Source of the DNA: a virus
Lineage: Duplodnaviria; Heunggongvirae; Uroviricota; Caudoviricetes
Length of the DNA: 37,320 nt
Virus record (IMG/VR): IMGVR_UViG_2534681604_000010
Span: 1-37,320 of that record
Reading direction: 5' to 3' (one strand)
The translations under genes were made by a program, and so were the position numbers. The notes under the pieces are model-generated. The model was not told where the DNA came from and searched no databases. It saw only the letters and a program-made list of their open reading frames with translations. Shown here one piece after another: positions 8,554 to 29,363 of this stretch. Each line of letters begins with the position of its first letter. Positions within the stretch are counted from its first letter, which is position 1.

Positions 8554-9726
8554 TTACGCGCTGACCTGGCTGGCGAAATTCACCAGGTACTGATCGGTGA
8601 TGCGCTGACGCAGCATCAGGTTTTCAAGTGGCGGCACTGGCGTGTAGTCGTAGTCGATGGTGAGTTTTCCGGCTTTCAGCGTGTCTTTGTCGTTCACCAA
8701 CTCATCCAGCCAGCAATCACCACCAATGAGATAGCCCTGACTGACCAGGCTGCGCATTTTGGCGCGGATACCTTCGATAATGTCGCGGGCCAGCGACGGG
8801 TTAAGCGGTTTATCCACCGCCCACATGTGTGCTTCTGCCATCGTGTCCATCAGCACCTGCGCCGTGCGGGTGTAGTTTTCGAAGGCAAAGAGCGGGTCAT
8901 CACTCAGGCAGCGGGAACCCCAGAAGCGGAAACCGTCTTTACGCACAAGCGTGGTGACGTCGTTCTGGTTCAGCAGACCTGCATCGGTTGCCGGGTCCTG
9001 CAGATCCCAGAACACATCTGCAGAAATTCCGGTGACACCGTTCACGCCCACGTTGGACAGGCTTTTGTGCCATCCGGTCTGCTCGTCAATTTTGGCGCGC
9101 AGACCAAGCGCACGGGCGGTGGCATATGCCGTTGCTTCGGCATTCAGCACCGTGTCCCAGCCAGTAAAGTCAGGCCAGATCAGCATCCCTTCGCGCTGGC
9201 TGAAGTTTTCGCGGTAAGTGATCGCCTCCTGCACTGTCTTGCAGCCATACGCTGACAGGTAAGCAAATCCACGCAGGCTTTGCGCCACGCTCAGCAACTC
9301 AGTAGCTACCGCCTTGGTGTCGTGGCCTGGCACGCCGAGAATGCGCGGTTTAACGCCGAGCTGTGACTGGGCAGATAACAGGGCTTTCATACCTGTTTTT
9401 TTACCTTCAGCAGTCACTGCGCCGATGATATTGGTCGTGGTTTCGTCTTCCGTTTCACCCTGCGGCACACGCACAACAATGGTCACGGGTTTTGCCTGGT
9501 CAGCGATGGCATCCAGCGAACGGGCCAGAGTACCTGACTCACCCGCTTTACCGCTGGCAGTCAGCACATCAGTGATCAGCACGGGTTTATTAAGAGGAAA
9601 CATTTTTGCATCGGCATCATCGCCCGTACAGACCATACCCACGATGGCGGTGCTCACCGTGGTAATAGATCGGGTGCCTTCGTTGACTTCAACAACGCGC
9701 ACCCCGTGGTGGTAATCCTGAGCCAT
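8554..9726 (-). CDS. FI: Contractile tail sheath protein gpFI
   Basis: 390 aa; strong RBS CAGGAGG upstream; P2 FI-like. Confidence 0.9.
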
Positions 9727-9868
9727 AGTGGCGAACCTCCTGATTGGATTAGGCTTCGCCCTATGTTGAAGTGATTGTGCCTGACAAACAGCTAAGCGCA
9801 GTTGTGTCGTTATTCACACAAAATAACGGTATTTGTCTGCTTGCAGGGATAATCAACATAATGCTGAT

Positions 9869-10441
9869 TCAGGGGGATTCATTGATCTTATTTGCCGGAA
9901 ATTTTCTATAAATGGTAGAAACGCCTACATCAAAAATCAGTGCAATACGCTGTATTGATTCTCCGGCCTCGAGTAAACGCCCAATCTGTGCCCACTGTTC
10001 GGTGGTCAACTTAGGACGGCGTCCACCTACTCTGCCTTTGGCACGAGCTGCAGCCAGCCCTGCCCTGGTACGTTCAACTATCAGTTCGCGTTCCATTTCA
10101 GCCAGGGCACCCATGACATGAAAAAAGAAACGGCCCATTGGGGTACTGGTATCAATACTGTCAGTCAGGCTTCTGAAATTCACACCACGCTGGCGCAACT
10201 CTTCTATCAGCGTAACAAGATGCCGCATACTGCGCCCCAACCTGTCCAGCTTCCAGACAACCAGCGTGTCTCCTGCCGATAGTGTCCTGAGCAGTTTTTT
10301 CAACCCTAGTCTGTCGGACTTAGTGCCACTGATTTTATCCTCAAAAATCCGCTCACATCCCGCGCAGTTCAGTGCATTACGTTGCAAATCGGTGTTCTGG
10401 TCATTTGTTGACACGCGTACATAGCCAGTAAGCATGATCAT
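9869..10441 (-). CDS. Serine recombinase, DNA invertase of the Hin/Gin/Pin/Cin family
   Basis: N-terminus GYVRVSTNDQNTDLQRNAL with catalytic Ser motif, central VVWKLDRLGRS, C-terminal HTH; very close to e14 Pin / Mu Gin as recalled. The true start may be the second Met at 10435. Confidence 0.9.
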   Translation of the reverse strand: MIMLTGYVRVSTNDQNTDLQRNALNCAGCERIFEDKISGTKSDRLGLKKLLRTLSAGDTLVVWKLDRLGRSMRHLVTLIEELRQRGVNFRSLTDSIDTSTPMGRFFFHVMGALAEMERELIVERTRAGLAAARAKGRVGGRRPKLTTEQWAQIGRLLEAGESIQRIALIFDVGVSTIYRKFPANKINESP

Positions 10442-10491
10442 CTCCTAGAATAAAAATCGGGGATGATGCCAGTTAGTCGTAATCGCTGCAT

Positions 10492-10517
10492 TTTCTTAAA
10501 TGTTGTTTGGGAGAGGA
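10492..10517 (+). other. Degenerate hix-like crossover site (relic) about 50 bp upstream of the invertase gene
   Basis: TTTTCTTAAATGTTGTTTGGGAGAGG resembles the site at 12409..12434 (outer half-site, TT core, inner GGTTTGGGAGAA) but has a 1-bp deletion in the inner half-site. Confidence 0.35.
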
Positions 10518-10713
10518 GGCGAAACTCGACGCTGCACACAGTGTATTTTTTTATAGATCTTGGGCTATATTCCCATTAATAGGCTGTAATAAGTTAAGAG
10601 TGCAATGGGAGCGTTGGAAGGGAGATATAACAAGCACTACGTATAATTGTGATTTCACGTTTCCTATGTCATTTCATGAACTTGTTTCGGCGTATATTCA
10701 AGCGCAGGTGTAA
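10507..10713 (+). pseudogene. Orphan promoterless tail-fibre C-terminal cassette (probable remnant)
   Basis: ORF opens with TTG GGA GAG (L-G-E) inside the relic crossover site, in the same register as the alternative fibre tip at 12426; only 68 aa and no Tfa gene follows. Confidence 0.3.
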
Positions 10714-11016
10714 TGGCATCTAATTATGATTATGTATTATCTTATAGAATTTTAAGAAAAGCTGTTTCAATCATCTAACTAACGAAACCCGTTGTTAATG
10801 CTCAGTTTTTTCCTTGTCGATATGCTGCTTTGTAGCTGACGTATGTTTACTTGGCTTGTAATATGTTTCTAATTAAACCCTGTAGAGATCTTGATCATTA
10901 CTCAGGAAAGAATAATAAGCGGTTAGTTAAAATTCCCGCTAAGGCTGCACTTTAAAATGACAACTTTAGCGGAGGATAAATTGTACTTACATGTGTAAAT
11001 TTTAGGCATTAATTGT

Positions 11017-11439
11017 TTAAACTTTAGTCTCTGGTGAAGAGTCTTTTTTGAAGCTATCATCCTCCTTCTTCCCAAACATGTAACCTAGAGATAACGTAAT
11101 AATTGGGGTGAAAACAGCCCAAGAATCTTTAACTATATTTAAAGCTGACTGTCCCCCATTACTGAAGACATCAATCACTAATAATGCTGCAACAATACAG
11201 GAATAAATAGTCAGTGAATACGTTATTACATGCCAAACAACACTGTTTTTAGCATCATCACCTTTACCTATTTTATCGGGAATGCTTTCCTCGCTTTTAT
11301 TTCTCACTCTTACTGGAATATCACCATCCTGATAATCACCTTTGGTTGATTTTTTGCTTCTTGACGAACTACCTGAGATAGAAAAAGAGCCACCCGCCTG
11401 CTCATACTGTTCATACTGTTCATACTGTTCATCAGACAT
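11017..11439 (-). CDS. Hypothetical membrane protein: acidic EQY-repeat N-terminus, two predicted TM helices
   Basis: 140-aa ORF in AT-rich DNA; MSDEQYEQYEQYEQ then hydrophobic stretches ITYSLTIYSCIVAALLVIDVF and AVFTPIITLSLGYMFG; no similarity to P2 core genes that I recognise. Confidence 0.5.
   Translation of the reverse strand: MSDEQYEQYEQYEQAGGSFSISGSSSRSKKSTKGDYQDGDIPVRVRNKSEESIPDKIGKGDDAKNSVVWHVITYSLTIYSCIVAALLVIDVFSNGGQSALNIVKDSWAVFTPIITLSLGYMFGKKEDDSFKKDSSPETKV
11401..11431. repeat. In-frame 9-bp tandem repeat (TCATACTGT, about 3.3 copies) encoding the EQY repeats
   Basis: Read directly from the sequence; unit is a multiple of 3 so copy-number change keeps the frame. Confidence 0.8.
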
Positions 11440-11442
11440 AAG

Positions 11443-11880
11443 TCATTCCCCATCCGCATCCAGAACTTCTTCTTTTGTAGCTATATTTACCGTCAACAGA
11501 ATAGCATCATTATTTTCAGATAATGATTGGGTGGCAAAGAATAAATAATAGTTAAAAGTTTTCTTTTCACCGTTATTTGGTTCTAGGGTTTGTTTAAAAA
11601 ATCTTGTCCGAGTACCATCGTTAACACCTGCATCAACATGGAAAAAATTGATAAGATTAATATTTAACCCATCTTTAATCGTAGTTTTTACTCGAGGGAC
11701 AACCTCACCTTTTTCGTCTTCTTTTTTATCAACATCAAACTTAAGTCTTAATTTAAAATCGCCATAAAATTCAACTTCAGGGTTAGCAGCAAGAACCACC
11801 AATGTTTGAGAAAATACGACATCCATCCCCGATATTTTAGTTTTAATTTGCTTTTTCATTTGCACGCTCTTTTTTTGCAT
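11443..11880 (-). CDS. Hypothetical soluble protein (Lys/Asp/Glu-rich), middle gene of the AT-rich cassette
   Basis: 145-aa ORF ending 3 nt before the next gene; no family recognised. Start may be an internal Met. Confidence 0.5.
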   Translation of the reverse strand: MQKKSVQMKKQIKTKISGMDVVFSQTLVVLAANPEVEFYGDFKLRLKFDVDKKEDEKGEVVPRVKTTIKDGLNINLINFFHVDAGVNDGTRTRFFKQTLEPNNGEKKTFNYYLFFATQSLSENNDAILLTVNIATKEEVLDADGE

Positions 11881-12136
11881 TCAGATTACTATGATCTGGG
11901 TTATCATTTAACTTATTCAACGAAGGGCTATTCATACAGATATAATAAGTAATAAATATAATTATTATTACAATAAAGCCAGACTTACACATGATTCTAT
12001 ACATAAACTTCCCTATATCTTTAAATACTGATGTGTCGATAAGGGAAGGGACGCGCCATAGGAATCGACCAAAGGCAAAAAGGAATAATGTAACCATTAC
12101 TCCACTTGCTATATATATATAAATTTTGATATCCAT
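11843..12136 (-). CDS. Hypothetical small membrane protein (two predicted TM helices), first gene of the AT-rich cassette
   Basis: 97-aa ORF with hydrophobic segments IYIYIASGVMVTLFLFAFGRFLW and GFIVIIIIFITYYICM; overlaps the next gene by 38 nt. Confidence 0.4.
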   Translation of the reverse strand: MDIKIYIYIASGVMVTLFLFAFGRFLWRVPSLIDTSVFKDIGKFMYRIMCKSGFIVIIIIFITYYICMNSPSLNKLNDNPDHSNLNAKKERANEKAN

Positions 12137-12408
12137 AAAAACCTTAAATTAGTTTTTCTATCCATCGCTTAATAAAAAAGGTTGAAATGATAAACTCTTC
12201 ATCTATTGACGCACTATTTAATATCATATTTTATAGAATATGTCGAGTATAGTTTTAACTTGGATTCGATATAACCACAGAACCATCGCCAACACCTAAA
12301 GATGTCGTCCATCCTTTGACGACTAAAACTTAACACTCAATATGAATGGTTGTTTTATATACAGCCGCACCGTTCGTAGCGCATTGGAAACGTAAGGTAA
12401 ACGCATTA

Positions 12409-12434
12409 CTCTCTTTAAGGTTGGTTTGGGAGAA
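12409..12434. other. 26-bp hix/gix-like crossover site, invertase-proximal end of the invertible tail-fibre segment
   Basis: CTCTCTTTAAGG-TT-GGTTTGGGAGAA; the inner half-site plus core is a perfect 14-bp inverted repeat of 14295..14308. Confidence 0.6.
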
Positions 12435-12773
12435 GCGGCTAAAAGGAATGTAGGGACAGGGGCGAATCAGATACCTGATATGGGTAGCTTCACGCTTTCT
12501 GTTTCAGGTACTGGATATCAAAAATTACCATCAGGTTTTATTCTTCAGTGGGGCTCAATCGGCGCACCAGGCATTGCACAGGATGTAGTAACCCATTTCC
12601 CGATTGCATTTCCAAACAGATGTCTGCGTGTTTTGGTCTCACAAGACTACACACCAGATAGCGGGGCTGTTGGTTATATTGCCTGTGCAGGTTTTAGTCC
12701 CGACCCGGTTAAATTTATATCCAGAGCCAGTACTCCTGGCCTCGGCGCTTCATTTTTAGCGTTAGGCTGTTAA
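12426..12773 (+). CDS. Alternative tail-fibre C-terminal segment (silent in this orientation)
   Basis: The frame is open from 12396 and has no ATG of its own; it begins inside the crossover site with codons G-L-G-E, identical to the codons at the crossover site within H, so inversion would fuse it in frame to the H constant region. Confidence 0.65.
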
Positions 12774-12794
12774 TTTAGCTATATGGAGTGAAAA

Positions 12795-13235
12795 ATGAAT
12801 TACATATATTCCGCGACTACAAACTCTTTCTATCCGCTGGAGATGAAAGAGGATTACACTCAAGCTGACTCATGGCCAGATGATGCTGTTGAAGTTGATG
12901 AGCAGGTGTATATTGAGTTTTCCGGATTACCGCCGAAAGGAAAAATCCGTATCGCTGGAGAAAATGGTTTTCCTGCATGGTCTGAAATTCCACCACCAAC
13001 ACATGAGGAACAGATTGCTGCAGCCGAACTGGAAAAGCAGCAATTGATTAATCAGGCCAACGATTATATGAACAGTAAACAATGGCCTGGTAAAGCGGCT
13101 ATTGGTCGTCTGAAAGGTGACGAACTGGCGCAATATAATTTGTGGCTGGATTACCTGGACGCACTGGAACTGGTCGATACTTCCGGTGCGCCAGATATTG
13201 AATGGCCTACGCCTCCGGCAGTTCAGGCCAGATGA
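12795..13235 (+). CDS. Tail fibre assembly protein, alternative copy (Tfa', U'-like)
   Basis: 146 aa; C-terminus ...LWLDYLDALELVDTSGAPDIEWPTPP parallels the C-terminus of the active Tfa; convergent with it, 29-bp overlap. Confidence 0.8.
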   Translation: MNYIYSATTNSFYPLEMKEDYTQADSWPDDAVEVDEQVYIEFSGLPPKGKIRIAGENGFPAWSEIPPPTHEEQIAAAELEKQQLINQANDYMNSKQWPGKAAIGRLKGDELAQYNLWLDYLDALELVDTSGAPDIEWPTPPAVQAR

Positions 13236-13809
13236 CATCCGGCGCGGTGCTGGTATCTGTTGCCGTCACCGCGTCAATGTAATCCAGCACAGCGTTAAGT
13301 CGGGTTGTTTCTGCCTGCGTCAGTTTACGTCCGGCCTGCAATTTCAGTTGAATCAGACTAATGGAAGCCATTGCAGTATCAATCAGTGACTGACGCTGTG
13401 CTTCTGCCGCGCCTACTGCGGCGCTATGCTGTGCCACAGTATCTGTTACCCATTTCTCACCATCCCATTCATCGTATGGCGTTAACGGGGCGATAGTGGT
13501 TGTATTTTCAGGATAATCACCCGGAGCTGTGATTTCTTTCGATTCTCCTGTTTCGGTGCTATAGATGATTTCACCGCGATGGTCTGGCACATATTCCCAT
13601 GAGTTTAAATCTGCCGAACGGCAGATTGCATAACCAGCCTTATGTGTGCCAGGGGAATCTAAACAGGAACATGCCGGAATGCCGACACCAACGGCAAGAT
13701 ATTCATTTGAAGTGGAAATATATTCCCGTGTTTCACCATCATAGTTATAAACGGTAACATCCCCTGCCTTTGTTGCAATGAGCTCACTATTTAATATTGC
13801 TTTATGCAT
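13207..13809 (-). CDS. G: Tail fibre assembly protein (gpG-like Tfa), currently expressed orientation
   Basis: 200 aa immediately downstream of H; conserved Tfa C-terminal motif ...LDYIDAVTATDTSTAPDVIWPELPEA. Confidence 0.85.
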   Translation of the reverse strand: MHKAILNSELIATKAGDVTVYNYDGETREYISTSNEYLAVGVGIPACSCLDSPGTHKAGYAICRSADLNSWEYVPDHRGEIIYSTETGESKEITAPGDYPENTTTIAPLTPYDEWDGEKWVTDTVAQHSAAVGAAEAQRQSLIDTAMASISLIQLKLQAGRKLTQAETTRLNAVLDYIDAVTATDTSTAPDVIWPELPEA

Positions 13810-15356
13810 CAGGCTGCCCTCACGATATAGTTAAATGCAATATTACGCGGACGCGTTTCTGAGGCTGCGGCACCTAAACCAGCCACTGATTGTTTATATG
13901 TTTTAAAGGTTCCATAATCCGGTGCTGGTAATCCGGCATCGTTTGTGTTTCCTCTTTTGATAATGTCAGTGCCACTATTTACCCAGCTTTCATCAAAATA
14001 GAAATTAATCGTTGCATCAGTCACAATCGTGGATCTTGACGGTAATCCATGAGCATGATCCTCCGTTGCATACCCCTGAATACTTAAAATAGAGCGACCT
14101 GTATCAATCCCCCGCCCGTCATCCCAGCCACGAATAAACTCACCACGTAAATCAGGCAATTTATTTGTCGGGTAAACTTTTGCCAGTTCCGGGTATTCTT
14201 CAGCAGAAAAAGCTGCACCATTGCATTTCAGCCAGCCTGTTGGCGGAGTGGCTGAAGGCCACGGAACAGGGACACCAACAGGTAATGCAGAGCCTTCTCC
14301 CAAACCAAGGTATGTGAGAAGACCAGCTACATCCTTTCCACTCAAATTAGTCAGCGTATTGTCCAGCGGTTGTTTACCTGCCAGCGCATTAAGCATTGTC
14401 GTGGCAAAGTTCGGATCATTCCCCAGCGCCGCCGCCAGTTCGTTCAATGTATCCAGTGCCGCAGGTGCAGAACCCACCATTCCTGCAATCGCCGATTTCA
14501 CAAAAGCCGTAGTGGCAATCTGTGTATTGTTGACCGACTGTGCCGCAGTAGGTGCTGTTGGCGTTCCGGTAAGTGCCGGACTCGACAGCGGCGCTTTCAG
14601 TGCCAGCGCATTATTAATAGTGGTACTGAATTTCGGGTCATTGTTAATGGCTGCGGCAATTTCTTTCAGTGTGTCCAGCATGGCTGGCGCACCGTTAATC
14701 AGAGCAGTAATAGCGGCCTGAACAAACTCTGTGGTCGCAATCCGAGTGGTGTTATTTCCTGCTGCAGGCGTCGGCGCTTTTGGTTCTCCGGTAAATGTCG
14801 GATTATGTTTCTGCGCATACTGGGTATGAGGATCTTGTGCGGCAATGTGGTTTCTCATCTGGTCATCCACATACAGCTTTAATTCCAGGACTTTATCATC
14901 CACGTATTTACGGGTTGCCAGCACTACAGCAGGGTCGATTTTCAGGATGATATTGTCCGTGCTGCTGGTAATCAGCACCATGCGCACGGTCTGGGTACGC
15001 CCGCTGCCTTCAGCCAGTTGCGGCTTATAGCTTTCCGGGCAGTTTCCCACGGCAATCAATGCCCCGGACTCATCAAACAGGCCCACTTCACGTATCCACC
15101 AACCGCCCTCGTTTTCAGGGATCACCTGTTCAGCAATAATCTGGCTACTGTTCTGCGGGTCGATATAAAGCATATTCAGCGCAGCCCGGCGTTTCTCATT
15201 TACCAGTGCCGTCTGCTTTGCGTCCGGCGTTGGCAATACTCCGCCGCCATCGCCCACCGCCATATGGGTAATTTTTAGCGGCACACCGAGCGCGGCGGCG
15301 CTGGCAAGTTTCGCCGCGCCAATATCCGTCAGCAGGGTATAAAATTTTGTGCTCAT
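13809..15356 (-). CDS. H: Tail fibre protein gpH (constant N-terminal part plus variable C-terminal part in current orientation)
   Basis: 515 aa; N-terminus MSTKFYTLLTDIGAAKLA... recalled as P2 H-like; contains a crossover site at 14295..14320. Confidence 0.9.
   Translation of the reverse strand: MSTKFYTLLTDIGAAKLASAAALGVPLKITHMAVGDGGGVLPTPDAKQTALVNEKRRAALNMLYIDPQNSSQIIAEQVIPENEGGWWIREVGLFDESGALIAVGNCPESYKPQLAEGSGRTQTVRMVLITSSTDNIILKIDPAVVLATRKYVDDKVLELKLYVDDQMRNHIAAQDPHTQYAQKHNPTFTGEPKAPTPAAGNNTTRIATTEFVQAAITALINGAPAMLDTLKEIAAAINNDPKFSTTINNALALKAPLSSPALTGTPTAPTAAQSVNNTQIATTAFVKSAIAGMVGSAPAALDTLNELAAALGNDPNFATTMLNALAGKQPLDNTLTNLSGKDVAGLLTYLGLGEGSALPVGVPVPWPSATPPTGWLKCNGAAFSAEEYPELAKVYPTNKLPDLRGEFIRGWDDGRGIDTGRSILSIQGYATEDHAHGLPSRSTIVTDATINFYFDESWVNSGTDIIKRGNTNDAGLPAPDYGTFKTYKQSVAGLGAAASETRPRNIAFNYIVRAA
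14295..14320. other. 26-bp hix/gix-like crossover site inside gene H (constant/variable junction)
   Basis: TTCTCCCAAACC-AA-GGTATGTGAGAA; on the H coding strand it encodes ...LLTYL-GLGE... Confidence 0.6.
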
Positions 15357-26600: not shown

Positions 26601-26620
26601 AAAGGTGCCCTGGCACCTTT
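26601..26620. terminator. Hairpin between convergent Q and the accessory membrane-protein gene (likely bidirectional terminator)
   Basis: AAAGGTGC-CCTG-GCACCTTT perfect 8-bp stem, flanked by T-rich sequence. Confidence 0.45.
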
Positions 26621-27305
26621 ATCTATTGCACCTTGGATTAAACTTCCCTTCCACATAATTTACAACCTCAACAAATTCGCTACCATTTACCTCTCTAAAG
26701 CTAAAAACCCCTTTGCCATCTACGCATTTCTTTAAAACAAAATTTCCGTTATATTCTCCAACTACTATTTTTCCATCCAAGGTTTTCCATAGAACAGATG
26801 CAAACTGATTATGATAATTAATCCCTCCAAGAAAACTAGTAACTGACATAAAGAAAACCGTTAATATGGCATATACGAAATCTATATTAATCAAATCACC
26901 ACTTCGTTCAAATGTTTTGCACAACGACATTACCACCAACCATGAACAAATACCAAAAAGACCACCATTAAGATAGTTAACTAAGTCTTTTTCCCCCCTC
27001 TTAAAACTTAAAAAAACTGAAAATATTGTTATGGCAATAAAAATCCAAAGAACATACTTAATTTTATTAAGTTTAATCGCACCATCATTCAAAATAAAAT
27101 TAAAAACACCTATAATAATACTACCAAAATAGAAAAAAAGCTTTAAAGAAATATTCGCAACACTCGTTAAATCTAATGATATAAGTATTGCTGGATAACC
27201 AAAATAAACGGCCTCACCAAGTTTAAAAAAATATGCCAATATAAATAGCAACACCGTCAGTATTGTTACCAATGGAAAATCAAAGTTATTATTAAATTTA
27301 ACCAT
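26619..27305 (-). CDS. Hypothetical polytopic membrane protein (four to five predicted TM helices plus about 70-aa C-terminal soluble domain)
   Basis: 228-aa ORF in strongly AT-rich DNA between Q and cos; no family recognised. Confidence 0.55.
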   Translation of the reverse strand: MVKFNNNFDFPLVTILTVLLFILAYFFKLGEAVYFGYPAILISLDLTSVANISLKLFFYFGSIIIGVFNFILNDGAIKLNKIKYVLWIFIAITIFSVFLSFKRGEKDLVNYLNGGLFGICSWLVVMSLCKTFERSGDLINIDFVYAILTVFFMSVTSFLGGINYHNQFASVLWKTLDGKIVVGEYNGNFVLKKCVDGKGVFSFREVNGSEFVEVVNYVEGKFNPRCNR

Positions 27306-27360
27306 ACATTACAAGATTCCATTTTATTTTAATAGCGCCCACTTACGCAGACGCCCCATA

Positions 27361-27651
27361 TTATTCTTTAATAAGAGTACCCCAATCTACATCAGATTCT
27401 GCAACTACAATATTAATTGAACATTGTATGCACTCCTCACTTATTCTCGTATAAGTGAAATATCTAGTTTTAACAATACCACTAAACGAAGACCGACTAT
27501 TGTCATTACATATAGAGACAAAATCACCTACATTGGGAAGTAGAAGAAAAGGATTTTCTTCTGACGAACAGCCTACTATATCTCCGTCATCAATTGGTCT
27601 TGTGGACCCTTTAGGCAAGTATTGGTAATCATAGCTATATATCGTCTTCAT
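27361..27651 (-). CDS. Hypothetical small protein, upstream partner of the membrane protein
   Basis: 96-aa ORF, same strand, 55 bp upstream of 26619..27305; AT-rich. Confidence 0.45.
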   Translation of the reverse strand: MKTIYSYDYQYLPKGSTRPIDDGDIVGCSSEENPFLLLPNVGDFVSICNDNSRSSFSGIVKTRYFTYTRISEECIQCSINIVVAESDVDWGTLIKE

Positions 27652-27737
27652 AACCTATCATTTTCCATATCTAAAACTTCATAGAGGGACTAAATATCCT
27701 TCGCATTTTACATTTAGTCAATATTTTTCAATTCAAT

Positions 27738-27756
27738 CTGTTATGTCATCCCGCGC
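27738..27756. other. Candidate cos cohesive-end site
   Basis: Minus-strand GGCGTGGCGGGGATACGAG; the first 13 nt match the P2/186 cos end as I recall it (GGCG[A/T]GGCGGGGA); surrounded by GC-rich short repeats. Confidence 0.45.
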
Positions 27757-27936
27757 GCTCGTATCCCCGCCACGCCTGCCCGCTTTATGTAGCGGTTTTC
27801 ATGCGCCTGCATGACATAAGCAAAATCCCGCCACTCCTGGCGGGCCTCAGCTAAAACGATCCTCAAACGATCATGCGGATTCATGCGGCATAGACATGCA
27901 CAATCTCCAAAGCGGGCATCGAGACTTTTTGGAAAC

Positions 27937-28548
27937 CTACGTAACCACAGTTAATGTGTGCATCCTGTCTCGAATTGCATCACACGTCTCATCAAAAAGC
28001 TTGGTGATGGTTGTATGGTTCAACTCCGCCTCTTTCCAATAATTTTGCCCGTCAAATTCTGGATCGCTATGCTTAAACGATATTGACTCTGAAAGGCATT
28101 CCTTCCGGAAACGGTCCAAGATTATATAAACCTCTGGTGAGATGAACGGTTTGTTAGATTCAACACTTGTAACAAAAGTGTTAAATGCATCAGAAAAAAC
28201 TTTCAACCTTCTAAATTTTCTCTCTTCAAATGGTTCGTTGGGGTCAACATGATCCAGCGCAGGCCTCAGCTTAAGCACGCTTTCTCTGGTTTCAAACATC
28301 GAATTCCAAATGAGACTATATGCTGATAACTCCTTATCAAAATACGCTTTCGTTACATAAACAGAATTGTCTAACTTAGCCTTTATTCTTTCATTAGTTG
28401 CACTCAGTTGTGATTGAAATTCAGCAATATCTTTGTTTAGCCGCGACTTATATCTTTCTAAATAAACTTTCCCGATCCAAACAAATATGCCAGATGCAAC
28501 AAAAGACACCCCACCCAACGAAGCCAGAACTTTAAAGACTAAATCCAT
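27937..28548 (-). CDS. Hypothetical membrane-anchored protein (N-terminal TM helix, soluble C-terminal domain)
   Basis: 203-aa ORF; AT-rich; located between gene A and cos, the tin/old accessory position of P2. Confidence 0.55.
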   Translation of the reverse strand: MDLVFKVLASLGGVSFVASGIFVWIGKVYLERYKSRLNKDIAEFQSQLSATNERIKAKLDNSVYVTKAYFDKELSAYSLIWNSMFETRESVLKLRPALDHVDPNEPFEERKFRRLKVFSDAFNTFVTSVESNKPFISPEVYIILDRFRKECLSESISFKHSDPEFDGQNYWKEAELNHTTITKLFDETCDAIRDRMHTLTVVT

Positions 28549-28930: not shown

Positions 28931-29164
28931 TTAGTGCAGCCAGCTGTCGTCTTCCCAAACCTGTTGCATAATTTCCATCACCCGCTTTTTGTCTTCATCA
29001 AGCTTTAAGCCACTCAGCTCAACGCCGTTTGCCGACCCTTTACGGATGCGGATAGCGGTCTTGGGATAGATGGGTTGCAGGTTGCGGTAAAGCTCGGACT
29101 CCAGAGCGTCCAGGGTAGACTGGCTAATCTTCTGCTCTTTATCGATCATTATTTCAATGCGCAT
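28931..29164 (-). CDS. DinI-family protein
   Basis: MRIEIMIDKEQKISQSTLDALESELYRNLQ...KKRVMEIMQQVWEDDSWLH resembles E. coli DinI (about 80 aa) as recalled; internal Met chosen as the start. Confidence 0.75.
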   Translation of the reverse strand: MRIEIMIDKEQKISQSTLDALESELYRNLQPIYPKTAIRIRKGSANGVELSGLKLDEDKKRVMEIMQQVWEDDSWLH

Positions 29165-29174
29165 AAAAGTCACC

Positions 29175-29363
29175 TCAGCTGATGACATCCATTGAGCGGT
29201 TGTATTCGTGGCTTCTGATTTTTGCCATGAGTTCATCAGTCAATTCAGAAACCCACTGCAGGGCCAGCCCCTTCTCTTCATCACTACACTCACTAGCCGC
29301 TACAAGCTTAAGAAAAAAATCAATGCGCTGGAGCTTCAAAGACTCCAAAAAATAGTCCTGCAT
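29175..29363 (-). CDS. Small acidic protein, first gene of the LexA-box operon
   Basis: 62 aa from the internal Met with strong RBS AGGAGG; sits between the LexA box and the DinI-like gene. Confidence 0.45.
   Translation of the reverse strand: MQDYFLESLKLQRIDFFLKLVAASECSDEEKGLALQWVSELTDELMAKIRSHEYNRSMDVIS

What the first reader, a model, noticed from the sequence alone, without database searches (positions are those of the whole stretch)
10714..12408. AT-rich three-gene small-protein cassette (two membrane proteins plus a soluble protein) between the tail-fibre invertase and its invertible segment
Three co-oriented, tightly packed genes (11843..12136, 97 aa, two TM helices; 11443..11880, 145 aa, soluble; 11017..11439, 140 aa, EQY-repeat N-terminus plus two TM helices) lie in DNA far more AT-rich than the flanking structural genes, and none resembles a P2/186 core gene that I know. 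The position between sheath gene FI and the tail-fibre genes is where P2 carries Z/fun, a known variable accessory and defence hotspot of P2-like prophages. Small membrane-protein modules at such hotspots are often superinfection-exclusion or abortive-infection systems, so this is my best candidate for an undescribed system.
Basis: partly seen in the sequence, partly recalled or inferred. Interest (0 to 1): 0.85.

Follow-up and report, generated by a model that had tools for sequence, protein, structure and literature searches.

The report
Mobile three-gene membrane cassette in prophage
A P2-like prophage carries, next to its tail-fibre invertase, a rare and highly mobile operon of two small membrane proteins and one soluble protein of unknown fold. 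It also travels on tiny plasmids and unrelated phages, which makes it a good but untested candidate for a new phage-exclusion system.

Summary
Three co-oriented, translationally coupled genes on the minus strand lie in about 33% GC DNA between the invertase (9869-10441) and the invertible tail-fibre segment (12409-14320). A is 12136-11843, B is 11859-11443 (138 aa, not 145), and C is 11439-11017.

All three genes are under purifying selection (dN/dS 0.07-0.22). Close relatives of the prophage lack the 1.9 kb island.

The operon is a self-contained mobile unit. About 80% identical copies sit next to an integrase in Klebsiella and in a Serratia chromosomal islet. Distant copies sit at the same tail-fibre/sheath junction of other P2-like phages, next to integrases, in an inovirus and in an Acinetobacter phage. 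A distant copy is also the only cargo I could identify on 2.5-2.9 kb plasmids.

The universal core is B plus C. B is a divergent DUF6864 protein whose confident all-beta model has no fold relative. C has a disordered variable tail and a nearly invariant two-helix hairpin. A is an enterobacterial add-on.

No protein matches PADLOC, Pfam, PHROGs-with-function, PDB, P2 Fun(Z) or the Rousset systems. Structural, chaperone and essential-lysis roles are excluded.

My best guess is a membrane-acting phage-exclusion or abortive-infection module (about 0.4). A plasmid or prophage addiction module is the main rival. Function is untested.

The parts
11843..12136 (-). Gene A: a 97-aa protein with two predicted membrane helices (window centres at residues 10-20 and 51-64) and a conserved YRxxCKSGFIV motif before helix 2.
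   Evidence: The ORF is and the hydropathy profile. Orthologues occur in Klebsiella (98 aa) and Providencia (100 aa). Shorter 62-77 aa versions lie upstream of B in L027-L029 and L037-L039. dN/dS is 0.22. A is frameshifted in Serratia and absent from the most distant modules.
11443..11859 (-). Gene B: a 138-aa soluble, acidic, all-beta protein and a divergent member of Pfam DUF6864. The alternative upstream ATG at 11880 would give 145 aa.
11017..11439 (-). Gene C: a 140-aa protein with a disordered, hypervariable N-terminal tail (residues 1 to about 52) and a nearly invariant two-helix membrane hairpin (about residues 61-122).
   Evidence: The ORF is. A 27-sequence alignment has invariant columns across KIGxGDDAKxSVVW...KDSWAVFTPIITLSLGYMFGK. 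The AF2 model has helices at 61-94 and 99-122. dN/dS of the membrane part is 0.017-0.054.
11398..11432 (-). A 9-bp tandem repeat encoding (EQY)n at the N-terminus of C. Copy number varies in frame from 2 to 4 between otherwise near-identical prophages.
   Evidence: the repeat finder family D2 and the alignment of 8 prophage copies.
10936..10973 (-). A terminator-like hairpin followed by a U-rich stretch, just downstream of C. It is the only non-coding piece shared with the Serratia copy.
   Evidence: BLAST gives 85% identity over 40 nt. The RNA fold has a free energy of -20.5 kcal/mol and a z-score of -2.86.
12218..12246 (-). A candidate own promoter: TCGACA, 17 nt, then TATTAA preceded by TG (extended -10), about 80 nt upstream of A.
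   Evidence: I read this from the sequence by eye. The consensus scan did not list it, so it is inference only.
12409..12434 (+). The active invertase crossover site (CTCTCTTTAAGG TT GGTTTGGGAGAA) at the cassette-proximal end of the invertible segment. It marks the right border of the island.
   Evidence: It forms an inverted repeat with 14294-14308. Both orientations of the segment are seen in relatives.
14295..14320 (-). The partner crossover site, inside tail-fibre gene H at the GLGE motif.
10490..10515 (+). A third crossover-like site next to the invertase, in direct orientation to 12409-12434. It carries a 1-nt deletion in the conserved half-site and marks the left border of the island.
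   Evidence: the repeat finder family D6. The site is identical in 8 cassette-bearing prophages.
10507..10885 (+). A remnant (pseudogene) of an alternative tail-fibre tip gene of the gp53-like C-terminal type. The 68-aa ORF at 10507-10713 is followed by decayed homology.
   Evidence: The stretch 10499-10885 is 75.5% identical to Enterobacter plasmid NZ_CP066556. That plasmid holds an intact 91-aa ORF with the same QW...FP...FP motif.
9869..10441 (-). Context: a serine DNA invertase (Resolvase and HTH_7 domains).
   Evidence: Pfam E-value 3.3e-51.

Best explanation
The 1.1 kb operon A-B-C is an autonomous accessory cassette (a moron, or lysogenic-conversion cassette) parked in the P2 Z/fun accessory hotspot.

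**Core and add-on.** The functional core is the pair B plus C. B is a cytoplasmic all-beta protein of the DUF6864 family. C is an inner-membrane protein with an almost invariant two-helix hairpin and a disordered, fast-evolving cytoplasmic tail. A is a second small two-helix membrane protein added in Enterobacterales.

**Most likely function.** The module most likely protects the carrier cell, and with it the element, against other phages by acting at the inner membrane. It would do this either by blocking genome entry (superinfection exclusion) or by abortive infection.

**Proposed mechanism.** C oligomerises into a membrane lesion or channel. B holds C in check, or senses a phage cue and releases it. 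A modulates C within the membrane.

**Shown here.** The genes are real and under selection. The module is mobile as a unit. B and C are always paired. The module sits in accessory hotspots of many unrelated elements. It is dispensable for the phage.

**Inferred only.** Expression in the lysogen from its own promoter, the roles assigned to A, B and C, and any anti-phage phenotype.
For: **Absent from close relatives, so non-essential.** The island is missing from the closest relatives, which include deposited phage genome records.

**Mobile as a unit.**
- Copies about 80% identical, with homology limited to the three genes and the hairpin, lie beside a prophage integrase in Klebsiella and in a Serratia islet.
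- Distant triplets or pairs occur in two other P2-like phages at the tail-fibre/sheath junction, directly after integrases, in an inovirus after the Zot and secretin genes, in Acinetobacter phage Ab105-2phi, and in Providencia and Cedecea chromosomes.
- I found no other accessory gene on ColE1-type plasmid pVCSW8 (2.9 kb). A 2.55 kb Pantoea plasmid also carries the pair.

**Obligate pairing.** A DUF6864-like ORF lies immediately upstream of C in 11 of 11 IMG/VR loci.

**Association with defence.**
- One 5.3 kb plasmid-like contig carries the cassette together with a type V retron reverse transcriptase.
- The P2 interval is a documented hotspot. Its cargo includes fun(Z), which blocks T5, and defence-like genes.

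**Operon features.**
- Codon overlap of A and B and close spacing of B and C suggest translational coupling.
- The module has a conserved terminator-like hairpin.
- The DNA is AT-rich.
- Purifying selection is strong, and extreme on the hairpin of C.

**Architecture.** A soluble partner plus a small membrane effector parallels known prophage exclusion and abortive-infection systems such as lambda RexAB. That comparison rests on established knowledge, not on homology.
Against: - No protein matches any of 5027 PADLOC models at a meaningful score. The best is a '2TM effector' model at E 0.04 for A.
- There is no link to any characterised family by sequence or fold.
- There is no experimental evidence, and no paper mentions the family.
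- Being the only identifiable cargo of a 2.9 kb plasmid fits an addiction module at least as well.
- Chromosomal neighbours in Providencia and Cedecea are not known defence genes.
- The promoter is only an eyeball match that the scan did not report.
- A is frameshifted in Serratia and absent in distant modules, so the three-part mechanism cannot be general.
Confidence: 0.4

Rival explanations
1. An addiction or toxin-antitoxin-like stabilisation module. C is a membrane toxin, and the upstream, faster-evolving B is its neutralising partner. The pair would maintain small plasmids, prophages and islets by post-segregational killing, with no dedicated anti-phage role.
For: - I found no other accessory gene on the 2.9 kb plasmid, and a 2.55 kb Pantoea plasmid also carries the pair.
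- The two-gene core is obligate, with the putative neutraliser upstream and tightly coupled to C.
- C is far more conserved than B.
- The module persists in a Serratia chromosomal islet without phage genes.
Against: - B has no recognisable DNA-binding or antitoxin domain, and none of the three hits TA families in Pfam or NCBIfam.
- One plasmid that carries the cassette already has CcdAB.
- Many toxin-antitoxin systems double as abortive-infection systems, so this rival overlaps with the best explanation rather than excluding it.
Confidence: 0.22
2. A host-fitness membrane module unrelated to phages. Possibilities include immunity to a bacteriocin or tailocin, envelope-stress tolerance, and a small transporter or channel. 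It would be carried as lysogenic-conversion cargo.
For: - The mixed-purpose nature of the Z/fun hotspot is documented.
- The module occurs in chromosomal islets and plasmids.
- The strongly conserved polar residues within the hairpin of C are compatible with a channel or a specific membrane-protein partner.
Against: - There is no similarity to colicin or microcin immunity or lysis proteins, or to any transporter family.
- No toxin gene accompanies it on the 2.9 kb plasmid.
- The family is extremely rare for a general fitness factor: 12 representatives among 1.84 billion clusters, and 5 of 72,556 plasmids.
Confidence: 0.2
3. A lysis-timing module of the holin/antiholin type, used by the phage itself.
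For: - A and C are small two-helix membrane proteins.
- One UniRef cluster of C carries the automatic name 'Holin'.
- In the Acinetobacter phage the pair lies between the early genes and the terminase.
Against: - Neither protein hits a holin family in Pfam or PHROGs.
- Close relatives lack the cassette.
- It occurs on non-lytic elements: an inovirus, tiny plasmids and chromosomal islets.
- It sits outside the P2 lysis cluster.
Confidence: 0.05
4. Decaying junk left over from tail-fibre segment shuffling, with ORFs that are not functional genes.
For: The island does contain a decayed tail-fibre tip gene and a damaged crossover site.
Against: - All three genes have low dN/dS at dS of about 0.7-1.5.
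- They are intact in hundreds of contigs.
- Gene order is conserved across very different elements.
Confidence: 0.02

Closest known systems
Pfam DUF6864 (PF21732), with its unannotated 2TM neighbour
   Same: B is a remote homologue: hhalign gives 96.4% probability and E 1.3e-9 over the N-terminal 76 columns. The B-type partners of C in plasmids, the Acinetobacter phage, Pantoea and Cedecea pass the Pfam gathering score. NCBI names the plasmid copy 'DUF6864 domain-containing function'.
   Different: The window's own B gives no Pfam hit at E up to 1, and the closest intermediates score just under the cutoff (26.6 against 27 bits). The family has no known function or literature.
P2 Fun(Z), the lysogenic-conversion gene that blocks T5
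   Same: It occupies the same genomic interval, between the tail-fibre genes and the pF/FI sheath operon. It is non-essential accessory cargo.
   Different: It is a single 528-aa protein, and tblastn finds no similarity.
Lambda RexA/RexB, and the RexAB-like pair tested by Rousset 2022
   Same: It works like this in outline. A prophage-encoded soluble protein is paired with a small polytopic membrane protein that collapses membrane potential on infection. That mechanism is established knowledge.
   Different: There is no sequence similarity (best E 1.0) and no PADLOC hit. RexB has 4 TM helices and RexA is about 280 aa. Membership is not supported.
Small membrane superinfection-exclusion proteins (T4 Imm and Sp, P22 SieA, P1 Sim)
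   Same: These are small inner-membrane proteins, encoded by phages, that block incoming DNA. A (97 aa, 2 TM) is of similar size and topology to T4 Imm. That comparison is from memory and is only a lead.
   Different: There are no Pfam or PHROG hits to those families. Those systems are single proteins, whereas this one has an obligate soluble partner.
CBASS/Pycsar 2TM effectors such as Cap15 (2TM plus beta-barrel)
   Same: They combine a beta-rich soluble module with a two-helix membrane hairpin. A hits a PADLOC '2TM effector' model only weakly (E 0.04).
Rst_3HP ('hp+hp+hp') and '2TM+1TM+TIR' of P2-like phages (Rousset et al. 2022, PMC9122126)
   Same: These are three-gene cassettes of unannotated or membrane proteins carried by P2-like prophages and validated as anti-phage systems.
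   Different: They differ in locus (gpA-portal) and in protein sizes (about 340, 350 and 230 aa, or with a TIR domain). blastp finds no similarity.

Membership tests
Pfam DUF6864 (PF21732) | The protein scores above the family's gathering threshold (27 bits) with the Pfam HMM. | tested here: not met
   The window's B has no Pfam family at E up to 1. The Providencia and plasmid-concatemer intermediates score 26.6 and 24.1 bits.
Pfam DUF6864 (PF21732) | Remote homology to bona fide members, tested by profile-profile comparison. | tested here: met
   hhalign of A3 (the window-B clade) against A5 gives 96.4% probability and E 1.3e-9 over 76 columns. All members of A5 pass the gathering threshold, at 30.9-87.7 bits.
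DUF6864 plus 2TM gene pair (the module defined here) | A DUF6864-type gene lies immediately upstream of, and is coupled to, a gene encoding the conserved KIGxGDDAKxSVVW...FTPIITLxLGY hairpin. | tested here: met
   The window has a 3-nt spacer between B and C. The arrangement holds in 11 of 11 IMG/VR loci and in the plasmid, phage and chromosomal copies.
Known anti-phage defence systems (PADLOC-DB v2.0.0) | A significant HMM match of at least one component to a system model. | tested here: not met
   The only match is A against '2TM effector' PDLC00671 at E 0.04 and 11.7 bits. B and C have no match. The plasmid copy of B also has no match.
Anti-phage defence system (functional class) | Expression reduces plaquing or the infective centres of at least one phage. 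| not testable with these tools
   This requires cloning and phage challenge. Only contextual evidence is available.
Rst_3HP / 2TM+1TM+TIR (Rousset 2022) | Sequence similarity to the validated proteins. | tested here: not met
   blastp gives a best E-value of 2.0 or worse against the sequences from Table S2A.
P2 Fun(Z) | Sequence similarity to NP_046777. | tested here: not met
   tblastn of A, B and C against P2 16000-24000 finds nothing better than E 0.37 over 12 residues. That stretch holds about 420 of the 528 Fun(Z) codons. Only the genomic position is shared.
Holins / antiholins | A match to a holin family, and a location in the lysis cluster that is required for lysis. | tested here: not met
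   There is no holin hit in Pfam or PHROGs. Close relatives lack the cassette. TCDB holin families were not searched.
   A, B and C have no such hits, while the neighbouring ORFs do: Gp53-like_C at 3.6e-15, and Caudo_TAP at 1.5e-37 and 1.3e-31.
Type II toxin-antitoxin modules | A recognisable toxin or antitoxin domain, with toxicity neutralised by the partner. | tested here: inconclusive
   There are no TA-family hits in Pfam or NCBIfam. Toxicity and neutralisation cannot be tested here. The gene order, coupling and plasmid contexts are compatible with this family.

The most novel reading that the evidence does not exclude
B (DUF6864) plus C is a previously unrecognised two-component membrane-acting immunity or exclusion system with an orphan-fold cytoplasmic sensor and an ultra-conserved two-helix pore. 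Enterobacterial versions have an added membrane modulator, A. The system is exchanged among myo-, sipho- and inoviruses, small plasmids and chromosomal islets, and it has repeatedly been captured at the P2 tail-fibre/invertase hotspot. That capture may have happened by recombination at the invertase crossover sites themselves.
Probability: 0.35. Interest if true: 0.7.

Novelty: new variant of a known kind. Interest (0 to 1): 0.6.

Why it matters
**A defined, testable unit.** If the cassette is a defence or exclusion system, it would add a new and very compact system (about 1.1 kb). Its components have no relative among characterised proteins, and one of them has an apparently new fold. The minimal unit for experiments is 10.9-12.4 kb here, or the B-C pair.

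**It gives a context to an unannotated family.** The analysis gives Pfam DUF6864 its first functional context. It has an obligate partnership with a conserved two-helix membrane protein, and it occurs almost entirely on mobile elements.

**It informs how the hotspot works.** The P2 Z/fun hotspot recruits the same kind of cargo repeatedly. Here the cargo island is bracketed by invertase crossover sites, which bears on how such hotspots acquire genes.

**If it is an addiction module instead.** It would still be a new membrane-toxin family that stabilises the smallest ColE1-type plasmids.

Tried and rejected
**Family libraries**
- Pfam, NCBIfam, PHROGs and PADLOC scans of A, B and C gave nothing significant.
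- PHROGs places the distant B copies only in an 'unknown function' family.

**Structure**
- Foldseek against PDB gave a best E-value of 0.1.
- BFVD gave one uncharacterised Siphoviridae protein.
- The afdb50 library was unavailable.
- The AF2 model of C shows only a helical hairpin and disorder, which is not informative for fold search.
- PDB sequence-profile searches with B and C found nothing.

**RNA.** An Rfam scan of 9700-13300 found nothing.

**Literature.** Searches for DUF6864, PF21732 and four RefSeq accessions found nothing.

**Known systems considered and rejected**
- Rst_3HP, AC1 2TM/1TM, gop, a RexB-like protein and P2 Fun(Z) were tested by BLAST and rejected.
- The UniRef labels 'DUF2326 domain-containing protein' for a B cluster and 'Holin' for a C cluster are not backed by any HMM hit here, so I treat them as annotation noise.

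**Position relative to the invertible segment.** I considered that the cassette lies inside the invertible segment and is switched by inversion. I rejected this for the window, because its orientation is fixed in 8 prophages while the segment flips. It does appear true for the distant copy in L039.

**Gene calls for C.** I first suspected that the 63-aa gene calls for C in many genomes meant disruption. The alignment shows intact ORFs with only an in-frame repeat-number change, so this is a gene-calling difference.

**Promoter scan.** The consensus scan gave fewer hits than shuffled sequence, and none upstream of A.
Full report
**1. What is in the sequence**

The window is a P2-like (Peduoviridae, Wadgaonvirus-like) prophage. 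Its closest deposited relatives are Escherichia phage 500465-1 and Klebsiella phages KP12 and Kp48xx.

The genes around the finding are, in order:
- the sheath gene (8554-9726, minus strand);
- a serine DNA invertase (9869-10441, minus strand; Resolvase and HTH_7, E 3.3e-51);
- the AT-rich island;
- a silent tail-fibre tip of the gp53-like C-terminal type (12426-12773, plus strand);
- two convergent tail-fibre assembly genes (12795-13235, plus strand; 13207-13809, minus strand);
- tail-fibre gene H (13809-15356, minus strand).

GC falls to 0.31-0.375 between 10401 and 12400, against about 0.55 on either side.

The coordinates of B need one correction. The ATG at 11859 gives 138 aa. It has an AAGAG ribosome-binding sequence 7 nt upstream, and it is the start conserved in the orthologues and database clusters. 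A and B therefore overlap by 17 nt. B and C are 3 nt apart, which suggests translational coupling.

**2. The genes are real**

I compared the window with the Klebsiella and Serratia copies. These are about 80% identical in DNA, with dS of about 0.7-1.5.

| Gene | dN/dS |
|---|---|
| A | 0.22 |
| B | 0.07-0.12 |
| C (whole) | 0.08-0.10 |
| C (membrane part) | 0.017-0.054 |

Nucleotide homology between these copies begins and ends with the three genes (window 12143 to 11025). It also covers a roughly 40-nt stretch downstream (10973-10936). That stretch folds into a stable hairpin followed by U residues (z-score -2.86). The conserved unit is therefore the operon plus a terminator-like element.

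A plausible extended -10 promoter (TCGACA, 17 nt, TG-n-TATTAA; 12246-12218, minus strand) lies upstream of A. This is my reading of the sequence, and the consensus scan did not report it.

**3. Anatomy of the island and its relation to the invertase system**

The close relatives lack the island. Their homology to the window stops at 10524 and resumes at 12412 (KP12) or further right.

Both borders coincide with invertase crossover sites:
- The active site is at 12409-12434 (CTCTCTTTAAGG TT GGTTTGGGAGAA).
- Its inverted partner lies inside H at 14295-14320.
- A third, directly oriented copy lies next to the invertase at 10490-10515. It carries a single-base deletion in the conserved half-site relative to every other copy.

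In eight near-identical prophages from public assemblies, the H-to-12409 segment is found in both orientations. The cassette never changes orientation relative to the invertase. The cassette is therefore outside the active invertible segment.

The left part of the island (10507 to about 10885) is a decayed alternative tail-fibre tip gene. It is 75.5% identical to DNA of an Enterobacter P2-like element, which holds an intact 91-aa gp53-like ORF. That same element carries a DNA methyltransferase between the sheath gene and the invertase, which is another example of variable cargo at this locus.

Within C, a 9-bp repeat encoding EQY varies in frame from 2 to 4 copies among otherwise identical prophages.

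**4. The proteins**

*Protein A (97 aa).* It has two strongly hydrophobic segments and a basic connecting loop.

*Protein B (138 aa).* It is acidic and has no signal peptide or membrane segment.
- With a 13-sequence alignment, AF2 gives a confident nine-stranded all-beta model (pLDDT 85.9, pTM 0.77).
- Among predicted viral structures it matches one uncharacterised protein only.
- By sequence, B itself hits no Pfam family.
- The B-type proteins paired with C in other elements pass the gathering score of DUF6864 (PF21732).
- A profile-profile comparison links the window's clade to those proteins (96.4% probability, E 1.3e-9).

*Protein C (140 aa).* It has a disordered N-terminal tail that varies freely between homologues. 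The two-helix hairpin is almost invariant across 27 clusters, in the pattern KIGxGDDAKxSVVWHVITYSLTIYSC...KDSWAVFTPIITLSLGYMFGK.

*Rarity.*
- B-type proteins form 15 clusters at 90% identity among 5.8 billion clusters.
- B-type proteins have 12 representatives among 1.84 billion clusters at 50% identity.
- C-type proteins form 33 clusters.
- C occurs in 5 of 72,556 plasmids and 2 of 50,697 phage records.
- None of 5,426 complete E. coli genomes carries the window's version, and three carry the plasmid version.
- The exact proteins nevertheless occur on hundreds of draft contigs of E. coli, Enterobacter, Cronobacter, Salmonella and Klebsiella. They are always annotated as hypothetical.

**5. 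Where else the module lives**

| Element | Position of the module |
|---|---|
| Klebsiella | beside the integrase at one end of a different prophage |
| Serratia marcescens | chromosomal islet between a permease gene and nrdG; A is frameshifted |
| Providencia and Cedecea | chromosome |
| 5 kb mobilisable plasmid (MobC, relaxase, CcdAB, Rep) | only other genes present |
| E. coli ColE1-type plasmid pVCSW8 (2.9 kb) | only cargo I could identify |
| Pantoea plasmid (2.55 kb) | carries the B-C pair; a VbhA-family antitoxin gene is also annotated |
| 5.3 kb plasmid-like contig | together with a type V retron reverse transcriptase (PADLOC RT_V, E 2.9e-127) |
| Two other P2-like phages | in the tail-fibre/sheath interval: one between the two tail-fibre assembly genes next to an invertase, one between sheath and assembly gene on the opposite strand |
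| Two elements | directly after the integrase |
| Inovirus | after the Zot and secretin genes |
| Acinetobacter phage Ab105-2phi | B-C only |

In 11 of 11 IMG/VR loci a DUF6864-type ORF lies immediately upstream of C. The A-type ORF is present only in the enterobacterial branch. The core is therefore B-C, and A is an add-on.

**6. What it is not**

- It is not a tail-fibre, chaperone or other structural gene set. A, B and C have no such hits, although the neighbouring genes hit those families strongly.
- It is not essential, because close relatives lack it.
- It is not a known defence system in PADLOC v2.0.0.
- It is not related to the three-hypothetical-protein or 2TM+1TM+TIR systems of Rousset et al. 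2022, nor to gop, a RexB-like protein or P2 Fun(Z).
- It is unlikely to be a holin/antiholin pair. It has no holin family hit, it occurs on plasmids, islets and an inovirus, and it lies outside the lysis cluster.

**7. Most likely function**

In P2, the interval between the tail-fibre genes and the sheath operon holds fun(Z). That gene is a non-essential conversion gene that blocks T5. A 2024 survey of more than 1000 P2-like genomes calls this a mixed-purpose hotspot, with invertases, receptor-binding-protein swaps and defence-like cargo. A 2026 study reports defence systems within the P2 late genes as well.

Several features point to an accessory membrane-acting module that benefits mobile elements in general:
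- its autonomy and repeated arrival at this hotspot;
- its positions beside integrases;
- its presence on minimal plasmids;
- its co-carriage with a retron;
- its architecture of a soluble partner plus a small, ultra-conserved membrane hairpin.

I rank the possibilities as follows:

| Reading | Confidence |
|---|---|
| Phage exclusion or abortive infection, with C as effector, B as sensor or inhibitor, and A as modulator | about 0.4 |
| Addiction or toxin-antitoxin-like stabiliser | about 0.22 |
| Other host-fitness membrane function | about 0.2 |
| Lysis control | about 0.05 |
| Junk | about 0.02 |

The first two overlap mechanistically, since both have a membrane toxin restrained by B.

None of these roles is demonstrated. 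The steps shown here are gene reality, the pairing of B and C, mobility, dispensability and hotspot residence. The assignment of roles is inference.

**8. Novelty and verdict**

The cassette is real, conserved, rare and uncharacterised. Its only database footprint is the DUF6864 label on distant homologues of B.

In kind, it resembles other compact prophage accessory or immunity modules with membrane effectors. In components, it has no relative among characterised systems, and B appears to have a new fold.

I rate it a new variant of a known kind, with a substantial chance of being a new system. I score interest at 0.6. It is a well-delimited and cheap-to-test candidate, but unannotated cargo in P2 hotspots is common. 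Nothing here yet shows a phenotype or an unusual mechanism.

Noticed in passing
window 10490-10515 and 12409-12434: The 1.9 kb island is bracketed by two directly oriented invertase crossover sites. The invertase-proximal site has a 1-nt deletion in its conserved half-site, and all 8 cassette-bearing prophages examined share it. This suggests the island was acquired or rearranged by recombination at the sites and then locked.
   Followed up: partly
window 26619-28548: A second AT-rich island (GC 0.28-0.44) lies between the portal gene and the gpA-like replication gene, in the classical old/tin defence hotspot. It holds three minus-strand ORFs (228, 96 and 203 aa) with no Pfam or PADLOC hit. 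A DinI-like gene follows at 28931-29236.
   Followed up: partly
window 11398-11432: A 9-bp tandem repeat encodes (EQY)n at the start of C. It varies in frame between 2, 3 and 4 copies among otherwise near-identical prophages.
   Followed up: yes
L003 7696-8017 (also L004-L006, Serratia marcescens): Gene A is split by a frameshift in the Serratia islet, at a position that falls in a T-run as judged from the ORF translations only. B and C are intact there. A is therefore dispensable where C is kept.
   Followed up: partly
L039 5348-6276: In another P2-like phage, a distant A'-B'-C' cassette lies between the two convergent tail-fibre assembly genes, apparently inside the invertible segment. Inversion would then flip the cassette.
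   Followed up: partly
L031 2816-3568 (Enterobacter hormaechei plasmid NZ_CP066556): A circular P2-like element carries a DNA methyltransferase between the sheath gene and the invertase. This is different cargo at the same hotspot.
   Followed up: no
L027 858-2205 and 4152-5087: A 5.3 kb ColE1-like contig, binned into an Oscillospiraceae MAG and probably an enterobacterial plasmid, carries a type V retron reverse transcriptase plus a cold-shock-domain gene alongside the A'-B'-C' cassette. Three short Streptococcus contigs with the same C gene (L024-L026) also look like contamination by such plasmids.
   Followed up: partly
L043 2683-6309: An inovirus-like contig (Zot, secretin) carries the B-C pair directly after the secretin gene. 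Here B is N-terminally extended (178 aa).
   Followed up: partly
window 10442-12425 against the E. coli collections: The exact cassette proteins are named as E. coli proteins on hundreds of draft contigs, yet none of 5,426 complete RefSeq E. coli genomes contains the cassette. The complete-genome records that do carry it (for example CP057615.1 and CP057031.1) could not be assigned to a species here.
   Followed up: partly
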